From Candidatus Acidiferrales bacterium (GTDB lineage Bacteria; Chloroflexota; Dormibacteria; Dormibacterales; Dormibacteraceae), in assembly GCA_035300005.1 (NCBI GenBank), contig DATGVT010000070.1:1-24861 (forward strand): a stretch of DNA of 24,861 bases. The letters are read 5' to 3'. Numbering within the stretch: the first letter of the stretch is position 1; each line of letters begins with the position of its first letter. Of the stretch, positions 5,132 through 13,060 are shown one piece after another. The position numbers and the translations under genes are program-made. The notes below the pieces were generated by a model. The model was not told where the DNA came from and made no database searches. It worked only from the letters and a program-made list of their open reading frames with translations.

Positions 5132-5844
5132 AGCAAATGCTCGACTTCGGCCAGTCCGGCCACGACCGGCAAGCCGTCCGGCAGGGGCTCCCGGGCCAGG
5201 GCCCTGCAGAGGACCGCCTGCATCCCCAGCCGGCGCGGCCCCTCGTAGTCCTCGCGGACCCGATCGCCGACGTGGAGAGCGCGCGCGGGCGCGACGTCCA
5301 GCTGCCGAAGGACGGCGTGGAAGATCTCGGGCGCCGGCTTGCGGCGGCCGACCTCGGAGGAGAAGACGACCCCGTCCGCGAGCGGGCCGATCCCGTTCTC
5401 GGCGACCTGCCTCCGCATCAGGGCCGGCGGGAAGGGGGCGTTCGAGCAGACGCCGCTGCGCACGCCCAGCTCGCGCAGCCGCCCCAGTACCGCCAGCGCG
5501 CCGGGGGCCAGCTCCACCGAGCGGTCCCAGCAGCGCTGCTCGCGGTCGAGCAGCTCCCAGACCAGTCCGGGCGGCAGCTCCAGGCCGGCCCGCCGCCAGG
5601 CGGCTGCGTAGACCTCCAGGTAGTCCACCTCGTCCTCGCTCCGGCCGCCCAGCGAATCCTCCAGCGGCAGCAGCACCCGCGCCAGCATCTCTTCCGGGCT
5701 GGGCGCCTGGCGGCCCAGCGCCTCCGCCAGCCGCGGCCGCATGCCCTCCAGCATCCGCAGCAGCGCCGCGCGGGGAAAGCTGAAGCTGACCAGGGTCAGC
5801 CCGTAGTCGAACACGACGGCCAGCGTGCTGCTCCCGGAGGGCAC
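5128..5844 (-). CDS. HAD-superfamily hydrolase (subfamily IA)
   Basis: [35 protein letters not shown]. Start reassigned to GTG 5844, 8 nt after a TAAGGT box. Confidence 0.88.
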
Positions 5845-5852
5845 GGTCAGCA

Positions 5853-5862
5853 ACCTTATGCT
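5853..5862. promoter_or_regulatory. Overlapping divergent -10 boxes (second bidirectional promoter)
   Basis: ACCTTATGCT: TATGCT (+, 5857-5862) is 6 nt before the moaC GTG 5869; TAAGGT (-, 5858-5853) is 8 nt before the HAD GTG 5844. Confidence 0.65.
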
Positions 5863-5868
5863 GTCGCG

Positions 5869-6354
5869 GTGCCGCAGGCGAAGGGCCGCCGGCTGACGCA
5901 CGTGGACGCGGCCGGGGCCGCTCGCATGGTGGACGTGGGCGCCAAGGCGGTGACGCGCCGCGAGGCGGTGGCCGAGTGCCGGGTGCGGATGGCGCCGGAG
6001 ACGCTGGCCGCTCTGCGCGCGGCGAGCCTGGACAAGGGCGACGCGCTGGGGGTCGCCCGGGTGGCGGGGATCATGGCCGCCAAGCGCACCCCCGAGCTGA
6101 TCCCCCTCTGCCACCCGTTGGCGCTGGACAGCGTGGAGGTCGACTTCGAGCTGGAGGCGGGGGCGGTCCGTGTCCTGACCCGCGTCCAGGTCAGCGGGCG
6201 CACCGGGGTCGAGATGGAGGCACTGACGGCGGCCGCGGTGGCCGGGCTGACCCTGATCGACATGGTCAAGGGCCTGGAGCGCGGCGTCCACCTGGAGGGC
6301 GTGCGCCTGCTCCTGAAGGCGGGCGGCAAGAGCGGCACGTGGCGGCGGAGCTGA
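5869..6354 (+). CDS. moaC: Cyclic pyranopterin monophosphate synthase MoaC
   Basis: [64 protein letters not shown]. Confidence 0.96.
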
Positions 6355-6833
6355 AGGCTCGGGCGCTGGTGGTGACGGTCAGCGACCGCAGCTCCGCCGG
6401 GCGGATGGAGGATCGCAGCGGACCCGCCCTGATGGAAGCCCTGGCCCAGGCCGGCTTCGAGCTGGGCCCCAAGCAGGTGGTGCCCGACGACAGGCAGAGG
6501 ATCGTCGAGGTCCTGCGGGCGGCGGTGGCCCAGGGCTATGACCTGGTGGTGACCACCGGCGGGACGGGGCTCGGCCCCCGCGACGTCACCCCGCAGGCGG
6601 CCGCCAGCCTGCTCGACTACGAGGTGCCCGGGCTGGCCGAGGAGATGCGCCGGCGCGGGGCGCAGAAGACGCCCAACGCCCTCCTCAGCCGCTCGCTGGC
6701 CGGCGTGAGCGAGCACACCCTGCTGCTGAGCCTGCCCGGCAGCCGGAGCGGCGCCCTGGAGTCGCTGGAGGCGGTGCTGCCCGTCCTCGGCCATGCGCTG
6801 CAGCTCCTGCGCGGGCAGACCGAGCACCCGTGA
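6339..6833 (+). CDS. moaB: MoaB/MogA molybdopterin adenylyltransferase
   Basis: [41 protein letters not shown]. Confidence 0.92.
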
Positions 6834-7507
6834 ACCTGAACTCGGACCTGGGCGAGGCGGCCGGCCCGGAGGCGGAGATCCTGCCTCTGATCGACAGCGC
6901 CAACGTCTGCTGCGGCGTCCACGCCGGCTCCGTCACTGCCAGCCTGGAGACCGTGCGCCGCTGCCACCAGCTTGGAATCGAGGTGGGCGCGCATCCCGGC
7001 TACGACGACCGCGCCAACTTCGGCCGGGTCGAGGTGCCGCTGAGGCCGGAGGAGATCGAGCAGCTGGTGCGGTTCCAGGTCGGCGCCCTGGCGGCGGTCG
7101 CCAGCCTGGGCTACATCAAGGTCCACGGCGCGCTCTACCACCGCTGCCAGGCCGACCCCGCCGCGGCCGACGCCCTGGCGCGGGTGGCGCGCGACTTCGG
7201 GGTGGGGCTCCTGGGCCAGCCCGGGTTCGAGATCCTGGTCGCTGCCCGCCGGGCGGGCGTGCCCGGCCACCGCGAGGGCTACGCCGACCGCGCCTACCTG
7301 CCCGACGGCCGGCTGCGACCCCGCACCGAGAAGGGAGCCGTGCTCAGCCCCGAGGAGGCAGCTGAGCAGGCGCTGCGCCTGCTGCGCTCGGGCGACTACG
7401 ACACGGTCTGCGTCCACGGCGATTCACCGGGCTCGGCGCAGGTGGTCCACACCGTCCGGGAGGGCCTGCGCCAGGCGGGCGTCAGAACCGGTCCGCTCAA
7501 GCGCTGA
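6830..7507 (+). CDS. pxpA: 5-oxoprolinase subunit A (LamB/YcsF family)
   Basis: LNSDLGE, SANVCCGVHAG, GAHPGYDDRANFGR, YIKVHGALY, EGYADRAY, TVCVHGDS. Confidence 0.92.
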   Translation: MNLNSDLGEAAGPEAEILPLIDSANVCCGVHAGSVTASLETVRRCHQLGIEVGAHPGYDDRANFGRVEVPLRPEEIEQLVRFQVGALAAVASLGYIKVHGALYHRCQADPAAADALARVARDFGVGLLGQPGFEILVAARRAGVPGHREGYADRAYLPDGRLRPRTEKGAVLSPEEAAEQALRLLRSGDYDTVCVHGDSPGSAQVVHTVREGLRQAGVRTGPLKR

Positions 7508-7532
7508 GCGCGAGCAACTACACTTTTTTCGC

Positions 7533-8039
7533 ATGCTGGAGGTTGGGGAGAAGGCGCCGGACTTCGAGCTGCCCGGCACCGGTGGCAGCGAGGTCAGGCT
7601 CTCGGAGATCCTGCCCCGGCACGGGGCGACCATCATCGCCTTCTACGTCCTCGACTTCACCCCCGGTTGAAAGACCGAGCTGACCGAGTTTCGGTCCCGG
7701 CACGAACAGATCGAGCGGTCCCGGCTGGGGCTGTACGCGATCAGCGTGGACTCCGTCTTCAGCCACCGGGCCTTCGCGGAGGAGCTCGGCGGGCTGCCCT
7801 TCGAGCTGCTCGCCGACTTCGAGCGGAAGGTCGTGGGCGAGTGGGGCGTGCGCCGGGACGACGTCAAGAACTACTCGGGGATGCCGATGCGCACGGTCTT
7901 CATCCTCGACCCCGAGGGGGTGGTTCGCTGGCGCTGGGTCCGCTCGCAGGAGCAGCCGCTGCCTGACTTCGACCTCGTGATCGCCGAGGCCCAGAAGGTG
8001 GCTCGCCGGCCGCAACGCAAGGCCGCTCGCAAGAGCTAG
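7533..8039 (+). CDS. Selenocysteine-containing peroxiredoxin (AhpC/TSA family), 168 aa, Sec at codon 46
   Basis: The frame reads MLEVGEKAPDFELP..FYVLDFTPG-TGA(7668-7670)-KTELTEFR..AISVDS..H.AF..LPFELLADF..RTVFILDPEG. The UGA occupies the peroxidatic Cys position (FTPxC), and homology continues seamlessly on both sides. Confidence 0.85.
7671..7704 (+). promoter_or_regulatory. Candidate bacterial SECIS element
   Basis: After UGA there is an 11-nt spacer (AAGACCGAGCT), then the hairpin GACCGA-GTT-TCGGTC (7682-7696) with a loop starting GU. A weaker lower stem is possible (7679-7681/7699-7701). The spacing matches that of the E. coli fdhF SECIS. Confidence 0.65.
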
Positions 8040-8054
8040 CCTGCTAGCAGCCCG

Positions 8055-8999
8055 CTAACTCCGCAGCGTCTCCAGGCCGGCGCGCAGCCGGCGCCAGCGC
8101 TGGTGGGCCTCCTCGACGCCGCACTTCTCGAAACGCAGCTCGTCGCCGGGCAGGAGCTGCGCGGCCAGCGGAAGGTCGGCCCGGGCCACGCCGGCCACCA
8201 CCGGATATCCGCCGGCGGTCTGGTGGTCGGCCATGAGCAGGATCGGCTGCCCGGAGGCGGGGACCTGCAGGCAGCCGCCGGCGAGGCCGAAGGACAGCAG
8301 TTCCGGGCCGGTGATCTCCAGCGGCGGACCTTCGAGCCGGAAGCCCATCCGGTCGGCGTCCCGGCTGACCCGAAACGACTCCCGGAAGAGCGCGCGCCGG
8401 GAGGCCGGGCTGAGCCTCGACAGGTGGGGACCGGGCACCGCCGCCAGCCGGGCGGGGCTGGCGTAGGCGGGGCGGCCCGCCGGAGGCAGGAAGCGGCCCG
8501 CCACCGCCGGCCGCACACCGGGGCCGGCGCGGCCCAGCTCGTCCCCGGCCTTCAACGGTCGGCCCTCGACCCCGCCGCGCCGCACCAGCAGGTAAGTCGC
8601 GACCGAGCCCAGCCAGCGGTCGCCGGCCAGGCCTCCGTCCACGCCGACGTAGCAGCGGGCCCCCTGGCGGCGGCCGCTGAAGGTCAGCTGGTCGCCGGGC
8701 GCCAGGAAGTGGCTGGTCCAGCCCGCCACCGGCTGGCCGTTGACGCTGGGCGCGAAGTCGGCGCCGGTGATCGCCACCAGGCAGGGGCGCAGCGCCACCA
8801 GGTCCGGCCCCCCGAGGGCGCACTCGAGGGCGCCGGCGCCCTCCGGGTTGCCCACCAGCAGGTTGGCCGCCACCAGGGCGAAGCGGTCCATGGCGCCGCC
8901 CTCGGGGACGCCGCCCAGCCGGTGGCCGGGGCGGCCCAGGTCCTGAACCAGGCTGAAGGGACCCGGCTTCAAAACCCGAAGGGCCGCCTCGGCGCTCAT
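8055..8999 (-). CDS. pxpC: 5-oxoprolinase subunit C (KipA/AHS2)
   Basis: VQDLGRPG..GVP.GGAMD, GALE..LGGP, GARCY, DRMGFRL, GCLQVP.SGQPILLMADHQTAGGYP. Confidence 0.93.
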   Translation of the reverse strand: MSAEAALRVLKPGPFSLVQDLGRPGHRLGGVPEGGAMDRFALVAANLLVGNPEGAGALECALGGPDLVALRPCLVAITGADFAPSVNGQPVAGWTSHFLAPGDQLTFSGRRQGARCYVGVDGGLAGDRWLGSVATYLLVRRGGVEGRPLKAGDELGRAGPGVRPAVAGRFLPPAGRPAYASPARLAAVPGPHLSRLSPASRRALFRESFRVSRDADRMGFRLEGPPLEITGPELLSFGLAGGCLQVPASGQPILLMADHQTAGGYPVVAGVARADLPLAAQLLPGDELRFEKCGVEEAHQRWRRLRAGLETLRS

Positions 9000-9646
9000 C
9001 CGGCGCTGGCGAAGAAGCGCACGCGGTCGCCGGGCCGCAGGAGGGACGGCGGGTCGCTCTGGGGCAGGAACATGGGCACGCTGGTGGTGCCGATCAGGTG
9101 CCAGCCGCCCGGGGTCGGCAGCGGGTAGACGCCGGTCTGGAGGCCGGCGATGGCGACCGATCCCGCCGGCACCGAGGTCCGCGGCACCCGGCGCCGCGGC
9201 AGCTCCAGGCGCGGGTCCAGCGGGCCCAGGTAGGCCCAGCCGGGCACGAAGCCGACCATGAAGACCCGGTAGTAGGGCGCGGTGTGCAGCCGCACCAGCT
9301 CCCTGACCTCGAGCTTGAGCGCGTCCGCGGTCGCCTCCAGGTCGGGTCCGTCGTAGGCGACCGGGATGCGGTGCAGGCGCCCGACCGGCGCCGCCCTGGC
9401 CCGCAGGCCGGCCAGCCTCCTGACCGCCGCCGACAGCCCTCGGAAGGAGATCTGCTCGGGGTCGTAGTGCACGACCACGCTGGCGTAGCCGGCGATCGCC
9501 TCCCTGACCGCGTGGTGCTTGCGAAGCGCCGCCGCCAGGTGGAGGCAGCGCGTGTTGAGGGCGGTGTCCAGGCGGCGGCCCAAGTCGACCAGGGCCGCCG
9601 CGTCACCCAGCGGGTGGATCCTCGGCGACGAGCGCGGCGGTGGCAT
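8996..9646 (-). CDS. pxpB: 5-oxoprolinase subunit B (KipI/AHS1)
   Basis: PLGDAA, IPVAYDGPDL, GFVPGWAYLG, PRTSVPAGSVAIAG.QTGVYP..TPGGWHLIG, PGDRVRF. Start chosen at ATG 9646; the ORF track gives 9658. Confidence 0.93.
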   Translation of the reverse strand: MPPPRSSPRIHPLGDAAALVDLGRRLDTALNTRCLHLAAALRKHHAVREAIAGYASVVVHYDPEQISFRGLSAAVRRLAGLRARAAPVGRLHRIPVAYDGPDLEATADALKLEVRELVRLHTAPYYRVFMVGFVPGWAYLGPLDPRLELPRRRVPRTSVPAGSVAIAGLQTGVYPLPTPGGWHLIGTTSVPMFLPQSDPPSLLRPGDRVRFFASAG

Positions 9647-10271
9647 GAGCGGAGACAAGGATGGCGTAGAAGACGCCGGGCAGGACGCCGGCGCCGCAGA
9701 GGGCGGAGCCGGCCAGCCCCAGTGCCCAGCCAGTCACGATCCCGGCCGCGACCAGGTTCCAGGTCTGGAAGCGGCGGCGCAGGAGCCGGAAGCCGGCGGC
9801 GAGGTCGAGGAAGTCGCGGACCCCGCCTTGCGCGAGGCGAGCTGTGGCGGGGGGCATCACCGCCAGCAGGAGCAGGCCCCAGGGCAGGGCGAGCGGGGAG
9901 CCGGCCAGGGTGAGCGCGTAGAGGCGGTCCAGGAAGGGGTCGCGCTGGGGCCAGAGCTGCAGCGCCAGCACGCCCGAGGCGGCCGGCCACCAGAGGGCGG
10001 CGAAGGGCGCGGTCAAGAGGGCCACCGCCAGCGCCACCAGGGCGCCGTCGGCGAGCTGCCGGGGGGCCAGGCGCCAGGGCGGCGGCGGCGCCGCCGGGTC
10101 GGCCGCCGACGCGCGCACCGCCTCCACCGAGTAGCCGAGCAGGGGAACGGCGCCCAGCGGCAGGAGCAGGACGCAGAGCGGTCCGGCCACCCAGCTCCAG
10201 CGGAAGCCGCCCTGAAACGGATACCCGAAGGCGCGCACCAGGCGGCTCGACGGCGCGCTGCCGGCGCTCAA
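9603..10271 (-). CDS. Multi-pass membrane protein, DUF4013-like
   Basis: AFGYPF..W, PLLGY..E..R..PPPW..LADG pattern with 4-5 hydrophobic segments. TTG 10271 follows GGAGG, but the start is uncertain. Confidence 0.7.
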   Translation of the reverse strand: MSAGSAPSSRLVRAFGYPFQGGFRWSWVAGPLCVLLLPLGAVPLLGYSVEAVRASAADPAAPPPPWRLAPRQLADGALVALAVALLTAPFAALWWPAASGVLALQLWPQRDPFLDRLYALTLAGSPLALPWGLLLLAVMPPATARLAQGGVRDFLDLAAGFRLLRRRFQTWNLVAAGIVTGWALGLAGSALCGAGVLPGVFYAILVSAHATAALVAEDPPAG

Positions 10272-11907: not shown

Positions 11908-13060
11908 CCGGCTCGCCCCCGGCTCCGTAGAGGCTGGCCAGCAGGGCGGGGTCCGCGGCCCGGGTCCCAGCGCTGGCGGCGGCCGTGAAGAAGACCTTCG
12001 CCGGCTCCATGGCGTGCAGGCGCTCGAGGAGGGCGGGCAGGTCCTTGTCGGCCATGGACCCGAAGACGACCACCAGCCGGGCGGCGCCGATCAGGCGCCG
12101 CAGGTCGGCGAGCAGGCGGTCGAGCCCGTCCGGGTTGTGGCCGCCGTCCAGGAGCAGCCGCGGCCGCTCGGCGACCACCTCCAGACGGCCGGGCCAGCGG
12201 GTGCCGGCCAGCCCCCGGCGGACCTCGGTTACACGTGTAACATCGCCCAGCGCCCGGGCGGCGGCGACGGCCAGCGCCGCGTTCTCGGCCTGGTGCATGC
12301 CCAGCAGCGGAACCGGCAGCCGCCGGTATTCGAACCCAGGCCCCCGGAGGTCGATCTCGGAACCCTCCCAGCCCCGCCAGCGGGCTTCCAGCTGGAGCTC
12401 GCGGCCCAGCCGCCAGAGGCTGGCGCCGGCCGCGGCGGCGGCTGCCTCCACGACCGCCAGCTCCGGGCCTCGGCAGCCGGTGACGGCCAGGTTGCCGGGC
12501 TTGATGATGGCGGCCTTCTCGGCCGCGATCGCCGCCACCGTCGGGCCCAGGTGCTGGACGTGGTCGAGGCTCACGTTGGTGATCACCGCCACCCCCAGGT
12601 CGAGCACGTTGGTGGCGTCCAGGCGCCCGCCCATGCCGACCTCGCAGACCAGCCTGTCCGCCCGCGGGGCCAGGTAGCTGAGGGCCAGCGCGGTCAGGAT
12701 CTCGAACTCGGTCGGGGGTCCGAGGTCGCCGGCGACCGCCTCCAGGTGGGGCAGGAGCGCCTCCAGCGCAGATGCGAAGTCCGCCTCCGAGATCGGCCGC
12801 GAGCCGAGCTGGACGCGCTCCCGGTAGCTGCTCAAGTGCGGCTTGGGCATCAGGCCCACCCGCAGCCCGGCCGCGCCCAGGATCGAGGCCAGAAACGCGC
12901 AGGTCGACCCCTTGCCGTTGGTGCCCGCCACCAGCGCCCCGCGGAGGCCGCGCTCGGGGTGGCCGAGGTGGTCCAGGATGGCCCGGATCCGCTGCAGTCC
13001 GAGCTTGACGCCGAACCGCCCCTGCGAGGTCACGTACTCGAGCGCCTGCTCGAAGGTCAG
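11762..13060 (-). CDS. folC: Folylpolyglutamate synthase / dihydrofolate synthase
   Basis: AGTNGKGS, PHL..YRER, TEFE, EVGMGGRLDATNV, DH..HLG, EKAAIIK, WPGRLE, LDGGHN, CGSLYL. The N-terminus TFEQALEYV lies upstream of the listed GTG 13033, implying a CTG start at 13060. Confidence 0.95.
   Translation of the reverse strand: MTFEQALEYVTSQGRFGVKLGLQRIRAILDHLGHPERGLRGALVAGTNGKGSTCAFLASILGAAGLRVGLMPKPHLSSYRERVQLGSRPISEADFASALEALLPHLEAVAGDLGPPTEFEILTALALSYLAPRADRLVCEVGMGGRLDATNVLDLGVAVITNVSLDHVQHLGPTVAAIAAEKAAIIKPGNLAVTGCRGPELAVVEAAAAAAGASLWRLGRELQLEARWRGWEGSEIDLRGPGFEYRRLPVPLLGMHQAENAALAVAAARALGDVTRVTEVRRGLAGTRWPGRLEVVAERPRLLLDGGHNPDGLDRLLADLRRLIGAARLVVVFGSMADKDLPALLERLHAMEPAKVFFTAAASAGTRAADPALLASLYGAGGEPVTPSAAALANARRLAGDEGTVLVCGSLYLVGELRAWPAEPADPGSTAA
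12227..12242. promoter_or_regulatory. parS: parS-like site (copy 2, inside folC)
   Basis: GGTTACACGTGTAACA is the exact reverse complement of the 16-mer at 1814-1829. Confidence 0.8.

What the first reader, a model, noticed from the sequence alone, without database searches (positions are those of the whole stretch)
7533..8039. Hidden selenoprotein: Cys-free peroxiredoxin with UGA at the peroxidatic site plus a SECIS-like hairpin
Seen: one continuous AhpC/TSA-like reading frame broken by a single TGA (7668) in the motif DFTPG-U, with an 11-nt spacer then a GACCGA/TCGGTC stem with a GUU loop. The protein has no Cys at all, so there is no resolving Cys. The catalytic Arg (RTVF) is retained, but the usual PxxxTxxC proline is replaced by Val (VLDFTPGU). 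Known: Sec-peroxiredoxins exist, and bacterial SECIS elements sit just 3' of the UGA. Inference: this is a 1-Sec peroxiredoxin that pipelines will split or call a pseudogene, and the organism has the selA/selB/selC/selD trait.
Basis: partly seen in the sequence, partly recalled or inferred. Interest (0 to 1): 0.78.

Follow-up and report, generated by a model that had tools for sequence, protein, structure and literature searches.

The report
Selenocysteine peroxiredoxin gene of Dormibacterota
This is one intact gene for a peroxide-destroying enzyme whose catalytic residue is written as a UGA "stop" that is almost certainly read as selenocysteine; the enzyme kind is already known, but this soil-bacterial branch is cut short or mistranslated in the public gene catalogues I looked at.

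Summary
Window 7533-8039 (+) is one AhpC/TSA reading frame with a single TGA (7668-7670) at the peroxidatic-Cys position. An 11-nt spacer and a GACCGA/GUU/UCGGUC hairpin (7682-7696) follow it. The product has no Cys, keeps the catalytic Thr and Arg, and has Val where the PxxxTxxC proline normally sits.

- The same TGA is kept in 18 other genera of the family and in 79 of 79 informative Dormibacterota loci; none has a Cys codon.
- Both sides of the TGA are under similar purifying selection.
- The hairpin shows compensatory changes and frozen synonymous sites. More distant Sec-form relatives carry different hairpins at about the same spacing.
- The genome holds selA, selB, selD (itself with a TGA), tRNA-Sec and two further UxxC selenoprotein candidates.
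- Independent soil assemblies show no variant at the TGA.

By sequence and predicted fold it is a BCP/PrxQ-type peroxiredoxin without a resolving Cys. Sec-peroxiredoxins (TxxU, PF00578/COG1225) are a long-known bacterial selenoprotein family, so this is a new member of a known kind. Most public protein records listed are 90-140-residue fragments, and three JGI records read Trp at the TGA. This scan has already reached the same verdict on other Dormibacterota genomes.

The parts
7533..8039 (+). Complete coding sequence of the Sec-peroxiredoxin (168 codons plus TAG stop), BCP/PrxQ type
   Evidence: frame; PF00578, E 2e-33; full-length alignment to A. pernix BCP 2cx3, E 3.8e-30; AF2 pLDDT 94.8; best fold match S. 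solfataricus Bcp4, TM 0.85/0.90
7668..7670 (+). UGA codon 46, read as selenocysteine at the peroxidatic position
   Evidence: Aligned with the Cys of the ...SPVC motif of 2cx3. TGA at this codon in 18 other same-family genera and 5 genomes of another family, and in 79/79 informative Dormibacterota loci. No variant in four soil assemblies
7682..7696 (+). SECIS-like hairpin: 5' arm 7682-7687, loop GUU 7688-7690, 3' arm 7691-7696, 11 nt after the UGA
   Evidence: Compensatory G-C to U-A and A-U to U-A changes at the two outer pairs. Stem third-codon positions and loop G invariant in 82 distinct sequences. Different hairpins 10-13 nt after the UGA in distant Sec forms
7647..7649 (+). Val39 codon, at the position of the Pro of the PxxxTxxC motif
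   Evidence: invariant Val in alignment A3 and in all Sec forms seen
7659..7661 (+). Thr43 codon, the active-site Thr of TxxU
   Evidence: Thr or Ser in all; only synonymous variants at 7661 in soil assemblies
7683..7685 (+). Thr51 codon, at the position of the resolving Cys (Cp+5) of 2-Cys BCPs; lies inside the hairpin stem
   Evidence: aligned with the second Cys of the CTKELC motif of 2cx3
7890..7892 (+). Arg120 codon, the catalytic Arg
   Evidence: aligned with the Arg of 2cx3; invariant in A3
6830..7507 (+). Upstream neighbour pxpA (LamB/YcsF, 5-oxoprolinase subunit A); ends in TGA used as an ordinary stop
   Evidence: PF03746, E 2e-60
8055..9658 (-). Convergent downstream neighbours pxpC (8055-8999) and pxpB (8996-9658)
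   Evidence: PF02626, E 2e-81; PF02682, E 3e-67; order conserved in 52-53 of 55 loci with full flanks

Best explanation
The gene encodes a 168-residue peroxiredoxin of the BCP/PrxQ subfamily in a Dormibacterota soil bacterium.

Inferred decoding: codon 46 (UGA) is read as selenocysteine. The small hairpin that starts 11 nt after the UGA is taken to act as the bacterial SECIS. It would recruit SelB-GTP-Sec-tRNA(Sec) while the UGA is in the ribosomal A site.

Inferred chemistry: the selenolate of U46, positioned by Thr43 and Arg120, attacks the peroxide and becomes a selenenic acid. The protein has no Cys. The resolving-Cys position of 2-Cys BCPs is Thr51. No internal selenenylsulfide can therefore form, so an external dithiol or thiol must reduce the enzyme through a mixed Se-S intermediate. 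Thioredoxin is the most likely reductant. This would be a 1-Cys-Prx / GPx-like cycle.

Shown here: the frame, the family, the conserved UGA, selection on both sides of it, RNA-level constraint on the hairpin, and the Sec machinery. Inferred: Sec insertion itself, peroxidase activity and the reductant.
For: Family and fold
- PF00578 at E 2.2e-33.
- Full-length match to A. pernix BCP/PrxQ 2cx3 at E 3.8e-30. U46 lies on the peroxidatic Cys, R120 on the catalytic Arg, and T51 on the resolving Cys.
- AF2 model pLDDT 94.8. Best fold matches are Bcp4, TM 0.85/0.90, and ApPrxQ.

Conserved UGA
- TGA at the same codon in 18 other genera of the family at 58-75% identity, and in 5 genomes of another family at 42-46%.
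- TGA in 79/79 informative Dormibacterota loci. No Cys codon was seen, and 78/79 products are Cys-free.
- Further Sec forms at 36-43% identity occur in other families of the phylum.

Coding on both sides
- pN/pS is 0.35 upstream and 0.37 downstream of the TGA in 95 sequences.

RNA constraint
- Synonymous divergence drops to 0.34 in the ten codons after the UGA, against about 0.50-0.53 elsewhere.
- The third-codon positions inside the stem (Thr ACC, Arg CGG) and the loop G of GAG are invariant in 82 distinct sequences. A Thr codon just upstream varies freely.
- The two outer pairs switch G-C to U-A and A-U to U-A together.
- Distant Sec forms have unrelated stems (UCACCUC, GUCUCG, GUCUC, CCUCC) starting 10-13 nt after the UGA.

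Sec machinery in the genome
- selD at 349 bits, with its own in-frame TGA.
- selB N-terminal half at a contig end, next to selA.
- tRNA-Sec at 69.8 bits against a threshold of 47.
- Two further UxxC redoxin frames with in-frame TGA.

TGA is otherwise a stop
- pxpA ends in TGA.
- 11 of the 25 orthologues terminate in TGA.

Not an assembly error
- No difference at 7668-7670 in contigs of four soil runs from three studies.

Possible reductant
- A thioredoxin (115 bits, over the cut-off) and a thioredoxin-reductase-like gene (340 bits, just under its cut-off of 343) are present.
Against: - Nothing here shows selenium in the protein, and no RNA run was available.
- The hairpin is short: 5 constant pairs plus a sixth that pairs in only 76% of distinct sequences. 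A similar hairpin follows 1.5% of random TGAs in this genome.
- Compensatory changes are seen in few lineages: 7 of 82 distinct sequences, probably two or three events.
- The canonical Pro of the Prx active-site motif is missing, so activity cannot be taken for granted.
- selB is seen only in pieces because the assembly is fragmented (493 contigs, 82% complete).
- The thioredoxin-reductase match is marginally below its curated cut-off.
Confidence: 0.92

Rival explanations
1. The UGA is translated, but not as selenocysteine. Examples are near-cognate read-through as Trp or Cys, or a lineage-specific recoding by another tRNA. The protein would then be a Cys or Trp variant.
For: Conservation of the TGA and of both flanks shows read-through, not the identity of the residue. 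JGI records translate it as W.
Against: A complete Sec system with a Sec-type SelD is present. A hairpin with the position and loop G expected of a bacterial SECIS is under RNA-level constraint. TGA works as an ordinary stop in neighbouring genes and at the end of many orthologues, so no code change applies. Trp at the catalytic position would kill a peroxiredoxin. The JGI W calls are most simply an alternative-code artefact on short contigs.
Confidence: 0.04
2. The TGA terminates translation. The locus is then a pseudogene, or yields a 45-residue peptide plus a separately started C-terminal fragment, as public annotation implies.
For: Most of the 120 listed public records are fragments of about 90-140 residues that begin after the TGA. 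A GTG-started ORF exists at 7746-8039.
Against: The same single TGA is kept across about 100 sequences down to 36% identity, without other stops or frameshifts in the compared core. The 42 codons upstream are under the same purifying selection as the downstream part. The C-terminal fragment would lack the catalytic residue and half of the fold.
Confidence: 0.02
3. The TGA is a sequencing or assembly error for TGC/TGT.
For: None found.
Against: Contigs of four soil runs from three studies show no difference at 7668-7670, while they do show synonymous variants at 7661. The TGA recurs in independent genomes.
Confidence: 0.01

Closest known systems
Sec-containing peroxiredoxin family of prokaryotic selenoproteome surveys ('Peroxiredoxin (Prx)', PF00578 / COG1225, TxxU motif; PMC1088965, PMC1794560, PMC13188914)
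   Same: Same Pfam family, and Sec at the peroxidatic position in a T-x-x-U motif. A SECIS hairpin with a G in a small apical loop lies just 3' of the UGA. Cys-form homologues are widespread (papers read).
   Different: The 2026 review describes a conserved PxxxTxxU motif; here, and in every Sec form I saw, the Pro is Val. The lineage is Dormibacterota. No paper in the searched library holds both the lineage name and selenocysteine/selenoprotein. I could not fetch the published reference sequences to compare them directly.
PrxU of Eubacterium acidaminophilum (Sohling et al. 2001, cited in PMC13188914; NCBIfam NF040737)
   Same: The experimentally established Sec-peroxiredoxin, with Sec replacing the peroxidatic Cys.
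   Different: Not the same subfamily. The window's protein scores 62 bits against a cut-off of 270 for NF040737, and that model is about 233 positions long. By sequence and fold the window's protein is BCP/PrxQ-like.
Aeropyrum pernix BCP/PrxQ (PDB 2cx3, 4gqc, 4gqf) and Sulfolobus solfataricus Bcp4 (3hjp)
   Same: Closest solved relatives, with full-length alignment at 36-39% identity in the structural alignment. The fold, the length (about 160 residues), and the positions of Thr, peroxidatic residue and Arg are the same.
   Different: They use Cys. ApBCP has a resolving Cys five residues after the peroxidatic one, where the window's protein has Thr. They have Pro where this protein has Val.
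Glutathione peroxidase and 1-Cys peroxiredoxins (mechanistic analogues)
   Same: A single chalcogen redox centre is oxidised to a selenenic or sulfenic acid, then recycled by external thiols without an internal resolving Cys. This is inferred from the Cys-free sequence.
   Different: GPx is a different family (PF00255, UxxT). No homology is claimed beyond the shared thioredoxin fold.

Membership tests
Peroxiredoxin (AhpC/TSA, PF00578) | Profile match over the curated threshold | tested here: met
   115.3 bits against a cut-off of 26, residues 4-133
Peroxiredoxin (AhpC/TSA, PF00578) | Active-site Thr/Ser three residues before the peroxidatic Cys/Sec | tested here: met
   T43-P-G-U46; Thr or Ser in all 24 aligned sequences
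Peroxiredoxin (AhpC/TSA, PF00578) | Conserved Pro seven residues before the peroxidatic residue (PxxxTxxC) | tested here: not met
   Val39, invariant in the clade. 97 of the 118 representative homologues in which a TxxC motif was found have Pro; 9 have Val
Peroxiredoxin (AhpC/TSA, PF00578) | Catalytic Arg | tested here: met
   R120 aligned with the Arg of 2cx3; invariant in A3
Peroxiredoxin (AhpC/TSA, PF00578) | Thioredoxin-type Prx fold | tested here: met
   AF2 pLDDT 94.8, pTM 0.90. Foldseek top hits are all peroxiredoxins; best is 3hjp at TM 0.85/0.90
Peroxiredoxin (AhpC/TSA, PF00578) | Peroxidase activity | not testable with these tools
   Needs enzyme assay
Atypical 2-Cys BCP/PrxQ | Resolving Cys five residues after the peroxidatic residue | tested here: not met
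   Thr51 at that position and no Cys anywhere. The protein is therefore of the 1-Cys (here 1-Sec) type
Bacterial selenoprotein | In-frame UGA aligned with Cys in homologues | tested here: met
Bacterial selenoprotein | UGA conserved in orthologues, with coding conservation on both sides | tested here: met
   79/79; pN/pS 0.35 upstream, 0.37 downstream
Bacterial selenoprotein | SECIS stem-loop just 3' of the UGA, with G in a small apical loop | tested here: met
   Hairpin 11 nt after the UGA with loop GUU, covariation and frozen synonymous sites. Other hairpins start 10-13 nt after the UGA in distant Sec forms. No Rfam model applies
Bacterial selenoprotein | selA, selB, selD and tRNA-Sec in the genome | tested here: met
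   selB is seen as an N-terminal half at a contig end, plus a weak C-terminal match on another contig
Bacterial selenoprotein | Selenium actually incorporated | not testable with these tools
   Needs 75Se labelling or mass spectrometry
PrxU (NCBIfam NF040737) | Equivalog score over the cut-off | tested here: not met
   62.1 bits against 270
Prx-SUH (NCBIfam NF045827) | Score over the cut-off; CxxU motif | tested here: not met
   30.4 bits against 298; the motif here is TxxU without Cys

The most novel reading that the evidence does not exclude
The Dormibacterota enzyme and its Sec-form relatives in the same phylum may form a distinct mechanistic variant of peroxiredoxin. Its features would be a VxxxTxxU active site without the otherwise near-universal Pro, no Cys at all, and a GPx-like one-centre selenium cycle. 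It would be kept as a nearly universal core antioxidant in a lineage of soil bacteria. If so, loss of the Pro and of the resolving Cys would be functionally tied to the use of Sec, for example through relaxed geometry or resistance to over-oxidation.
Probability: 0.3. Interest if true: 0.5.

Novelty: new member of a known kind. Interest (0 to 1): 0.3.

Why it matters
The practical value lies in annotation. Most public records listed for it are fragments of about 90-140 residues, and three translate the codon as Trp. Antioxidant capacity and selenium use are therefore under-counted in Dormibacterota, a widespread uncultured soil lineage.

No NCBIfam model reaches its cut-off on this protein. 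That may be why the NCBI records listed are truncated.

It also shows that this lineage carries the Sec trait and spends it on thiol-type redox proteins: the Prx, two UxxC redoxins and SelD. I found no paper in the searched library that holds both the lineage name and selenocysteine or selenoprotein.

The Cys-free, Pro-less active site is a natural test case for what Sec buys a peroxiredoxin.

Tried and rejected
- Rfam scan of 7450-8100 at a permissive threshold gave only one chance-level hit (cow-rumen-3, 14 bits against 87). No SECIS family applies.
- The promoter and terminator consensus scan of 7350-8200 found nothing.
- The single-sequence fold of 7668-7720 was not better than shuffles (z -1.07), so the single-sequence fold energy gives no support either way.
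- An alternative longer pairing uses the upstream GACCGAG copy (7673-7679) and is favoured by MFE in many orthologues. I rejected it. Those positions vary freely and do not follow the 3' arm in the sequences with compensatory changes.
- A genetic-code change (TGA = Trp or Gly) was rejected, because TGA ends pxpA and many orthologues.
- No RNA holder was listed among public runs, so expression could not be examined.
- The runs laid are Logan contigs, not raw reads. Two of them may be the source of the assembly.
- Literature searches pairing Dormibacter or Dormiibacter with selenocysteine or selenoprotein found nothing.
- I did not run complex prediction with thioredoxin. Enzyme-reductant pairs are poorly resolved by that test.
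- G012 (locus L026) is unpublished. It was seen, but it is excluded from alignments A1-A3 and from the counts given.

Full report
**Observation**

The window reads exactly as described.
- ATG is at 7533 and a single in-frame TGA at 7668-7670. The stop TAG is at 8037-8039.
- Reading TGA as U gives a 168-residue product with the motif FYVLDFTPGU and no cysteine.
- After the TGA come 11 nt, then GACCGA (7682-7687), GTT (7688-7690) and TCGGTC (7691-7696).
- Table-11 ORF listing splits the frame into 7533-7670 (45 aa) and later-starting pieces such as 7746-8039.
- Pfam AhpC-TSA covers residues 4-133 across the TGA (E 2.2e-33).
- No NCBIfam model reaches its cut-off. PrxU scores 62 bits against 270.

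**Is the hairpin more than chance?**

Taken alone, barely.
- The local fold is not better than shuffles (z -1.07).
- 1.5% of all 49,532 TGA triplets in this 73% G+C genome are followed by a comparable 6-bp hairpin.
- The evidence that counts is therefore comparative.

**Sec machinery**

The window is contig C70 of a 2.56-Mb, 493-contig, 82%-complete genome. That genome holds the following.
- selD at 349 bits, with its own in-frame TGA in the GAGU-ACK motif.
- selA, and directly beside it the N-terminal half of selB running off a contig end.
- A tRNA-Sec at 69.8 bits against a gathering score of 47, also called by ARAGORN with anticodon TCA.
- Two other redoxin-type frames with an in-frame TGA in a UxxC motif, on C249 and C385.

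**Conservation of the UGA**
- Among 40 relatives, 18 other genera of the same family have an orthologue at 58-75% identity with a TGA at this codon. A 19th, G012, is unpublished and is not counted.
- Five genomes of a second family have one at 42-46% identity.
- Where one search lists a second TGA for a relative, it is the gene's own stop codon.
- In alignment A3 (24 sequences) the invariant residues lie on both sides of U46. They include F37, Y38, V39, D41, F42, G45, U46, E49, L50, R54, S71-V72-D73 and R120.
The 80 best are almost all titled Candidatus Dormiibacterota or Dormibacteraceae, or an older 'Chloroflexi bacterium' label.
- 79 of 79 informative loci have TGA and none has a Cys codon. 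78 of 79 products are Cys-free.
- Some of these loci may be the same species genomes as those; 98 sequences give 82 distinct 45-mers.
- A wider sample of the same taxonomic phylum found more Sec forms at 36-43% identity in four further families, and Cys forms at a similar distance.
- In 1.84 billion 50%-identity representatives, the only hits above about 45% identity are fragments. The nearest full-length Cys forms are about 35-43% identical.

**Both halves are coding**

Over 400 random pairs of 95 sequences, pN/pS is 0.35 for the 42 codons before the UGA and 0.37 for the 100 codons after it. This excludes a pseudogene, and also a gene that begins after the TGA.

**RNA-level constraint**
- Synonymous divergence falls to 0.34 in the ten codons after the UGA, against 0.50-0.53 elsewhere.
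- In 82 distinct sequences, the third-codon positions inside the stem (Thr ACC, Arg CGG) and the first loop base (G of GAG) never change. The third position of a Thr codon eight bases upstream varies among all four bases.
- The two outer pairs change together: G-C to U-A in 7 sequences and A-U to U-A in 7. In one search, 0 of 500 shuffles reached the observed covariation score.
- The innermost A-U pair is dispensable; it pairs in 76% of distinct sequences.
- More distant Sec forms have unrelated stems starting 10-13 nt after the UGA, 11 nt in three of the five types. They are UCACCUC/GAGGUGA, GUCUCG/CGAGAC, GUCUC/GAGAC and CCUCC/GGAGG, with small loops that contain G and U.
- From my own knowledge: the minimal E. 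coli fdhF SECIS is an upper stem-loop that must lie 11 nt from the UGA, and bacterial SECIS searches require a G in a small apical loop. The latter is stated in PMC1088965.
- An alternative pairing with the upstream GACCGAG repeat is not supported by the variation.

**Not an error, not a code change**
- Contigs from four soil runs of three studies cover the site without any difference at 7668-7670. They do show synonymous variants at 7661. Two of these runs may be the source sample.
- TGA ends the neighbouring pxpA and 11 of the 25 orthologues. TGA is thus an ordinary stop in this lineage.

**What kind of peroxiredoxin**
- The closest solved sequence is Aeropyrum pernix BCP/PrxQ (2cx3, E 3.8e-30), aligned over the full length. 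U46 lies on its peroxidatic Cys and R120 on its Arg. T51 lies on its resolving Cys, five residues on.
- The AF2 model is confident (pLDDT 94.8). It best matches Sulfolobus Bcp4 (TM 0.85/0.90) and ApPrxQ.
- It is therefore a BCP/PrxQ-type enzyme that has lost the resolving Cys.
- The Pro of PxxxTxxC is Val in all Sec forms seen.
- In the representative search a TxxC motif was found in 118 of the 150 listed homologues. Of these, 97 have Pro, 9 have Val and 3 have Leu; one Cys form reads FYVLDFTGGC.
- Val is thus a clade trait strongly associated with Sec forms, but not exclusive to them.

**Mechanism**
- Shown: the architecture and the constraints above.
- Inferred: SelB-dependent Sec insertion at codon 46, followed by peroxide reduction by the selenolate, assisted by T43 and R120.
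- Inferred: with no Cys in the protein, the selenenic acid must be recycled by an external thiol partner through a mixed Se-S bond, as in 1-Cys Prx or GPx.
- A thioredoxin (115 bits) and a thioredoxin-reductase-like gene (340 bits, cut-off 343) are in the genome.

**Context**

The gene sits between pxpA (+) and the convergent pxpC-pxpB (-). moaC and a MoaB/Mog-type gene lie further upstream. This order is kept in 50-55 of 55 loci with full flanks. I read it as inherited synteny, not as a functional link.

**Comparison with what is known**
- Sec-peroxiredoxin (PF00578, TxxU) is listed among verified prokaryotic selenoproteins, with PrxU of Eubacterium acidaminophilum as the experimental case (PMC13188914).
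[quoted passage not shown] It was found in 12 genomes in the 2006 survey (PMC1794560).
- The window's gene is a member of that kind. It is not PrxU itself.
- The differences are the lineage, the Val for Pro, and the state of public annotation.
- On annotation, most of the 120 listed records are fragments of about 90-140 residues, named 'redoxin domain-containing protein' or 'peroxiredoxin'. The three full-length JGI records read W at the site.
- No paper in the searched library mentions both Dormibacter(ota) or Dormiibacter(ota) and selenocysteine or selenoprotein.

**Earlier notes of this scan**

After I had reached this reading, searches showed that the scan has already followed up the same family in at least eight other Dormibacterota genomes. 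The verdict was the same each time: a Sec-Prx, a known kind, split by gene callers. My results agree and were obtained independently on this window.

**Verdict**

It is a new member of a known kind. Its interest is moderate to low, resting mainly on annotation and on the Pro-less, Cys-free active site.

Noticed in passing
G000:C221:3914-4816 (-), locus L001: selD of this genome itself carries an in-frame TGA in the N-terminal GAGU-ACK motif, so it is a Sec-type SelD. A GC-rich hairpin with G in the loop starts about 13 nt downstream.
   Followed up: partly
G000:C249:5688-6086 (-) (L045) and G000:C385:2020-2436 (+) (L046): Two more candidate selenoproteins of the redoxin/Prx-like type have TGA in a UxxC motif (FYRGDWUPYC and FYEHAGUAPC). 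The second follows a hydrophobic N-terminal stretch. TGA-containing relatives of the first appear in several related genomes.
   Followed up: partly
window 5137-9658 and loci L049-L127: The gene order moaC, moaB/mog-like, pxpA, Sec-prx, then convergent pxpC-pxpB is kept in 50-55 of 55 Dormibacterota loci with full flanks. No functional link is evident.
   Followed up: partly
proteins P0002, P0003, P0004: Three JGI metagenome records of this family are full length only because the TGA was translated as Trp. This is presumably an alternative genetic code applied to short contigs.
   Followed up: no
loci L058, L070, L078, L083, L095, L101, L110, L115, L118, L121: Orthologues at 57-69% identity sit in MAGs titled Bacillota, Micrarchaeaceae archaeon, Vicinamibacterales, Acidoferrum, Eisenbacteria, Verrucomicrobiia, Sulfotelmatobacter, Nitrosotalea or Baltobacterales. 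L070 has the Dormibacterota gene order around it; L058 showed only moaC and moaB nearby. These titles probably reflect mis-binned contigs or wrong labels rather than transfer.
   Followed up: no
window 7508-7532: Only 25 nt separate the pxpA stop from the prx start. They hold a T-run and a TACACT hexamer 9 nt before the ATG, with no Shine-Dalgarno-like sequence. This might mean a leaderless or co-transcribed message. The consensus promoter scan found nothing.
   Followed up: no
G000:C372: tRNA-Sec (11944-12038) and the best thioredoxin match (5310-5603) lie about 6 kb apart on the same contig.
   Followed up: no
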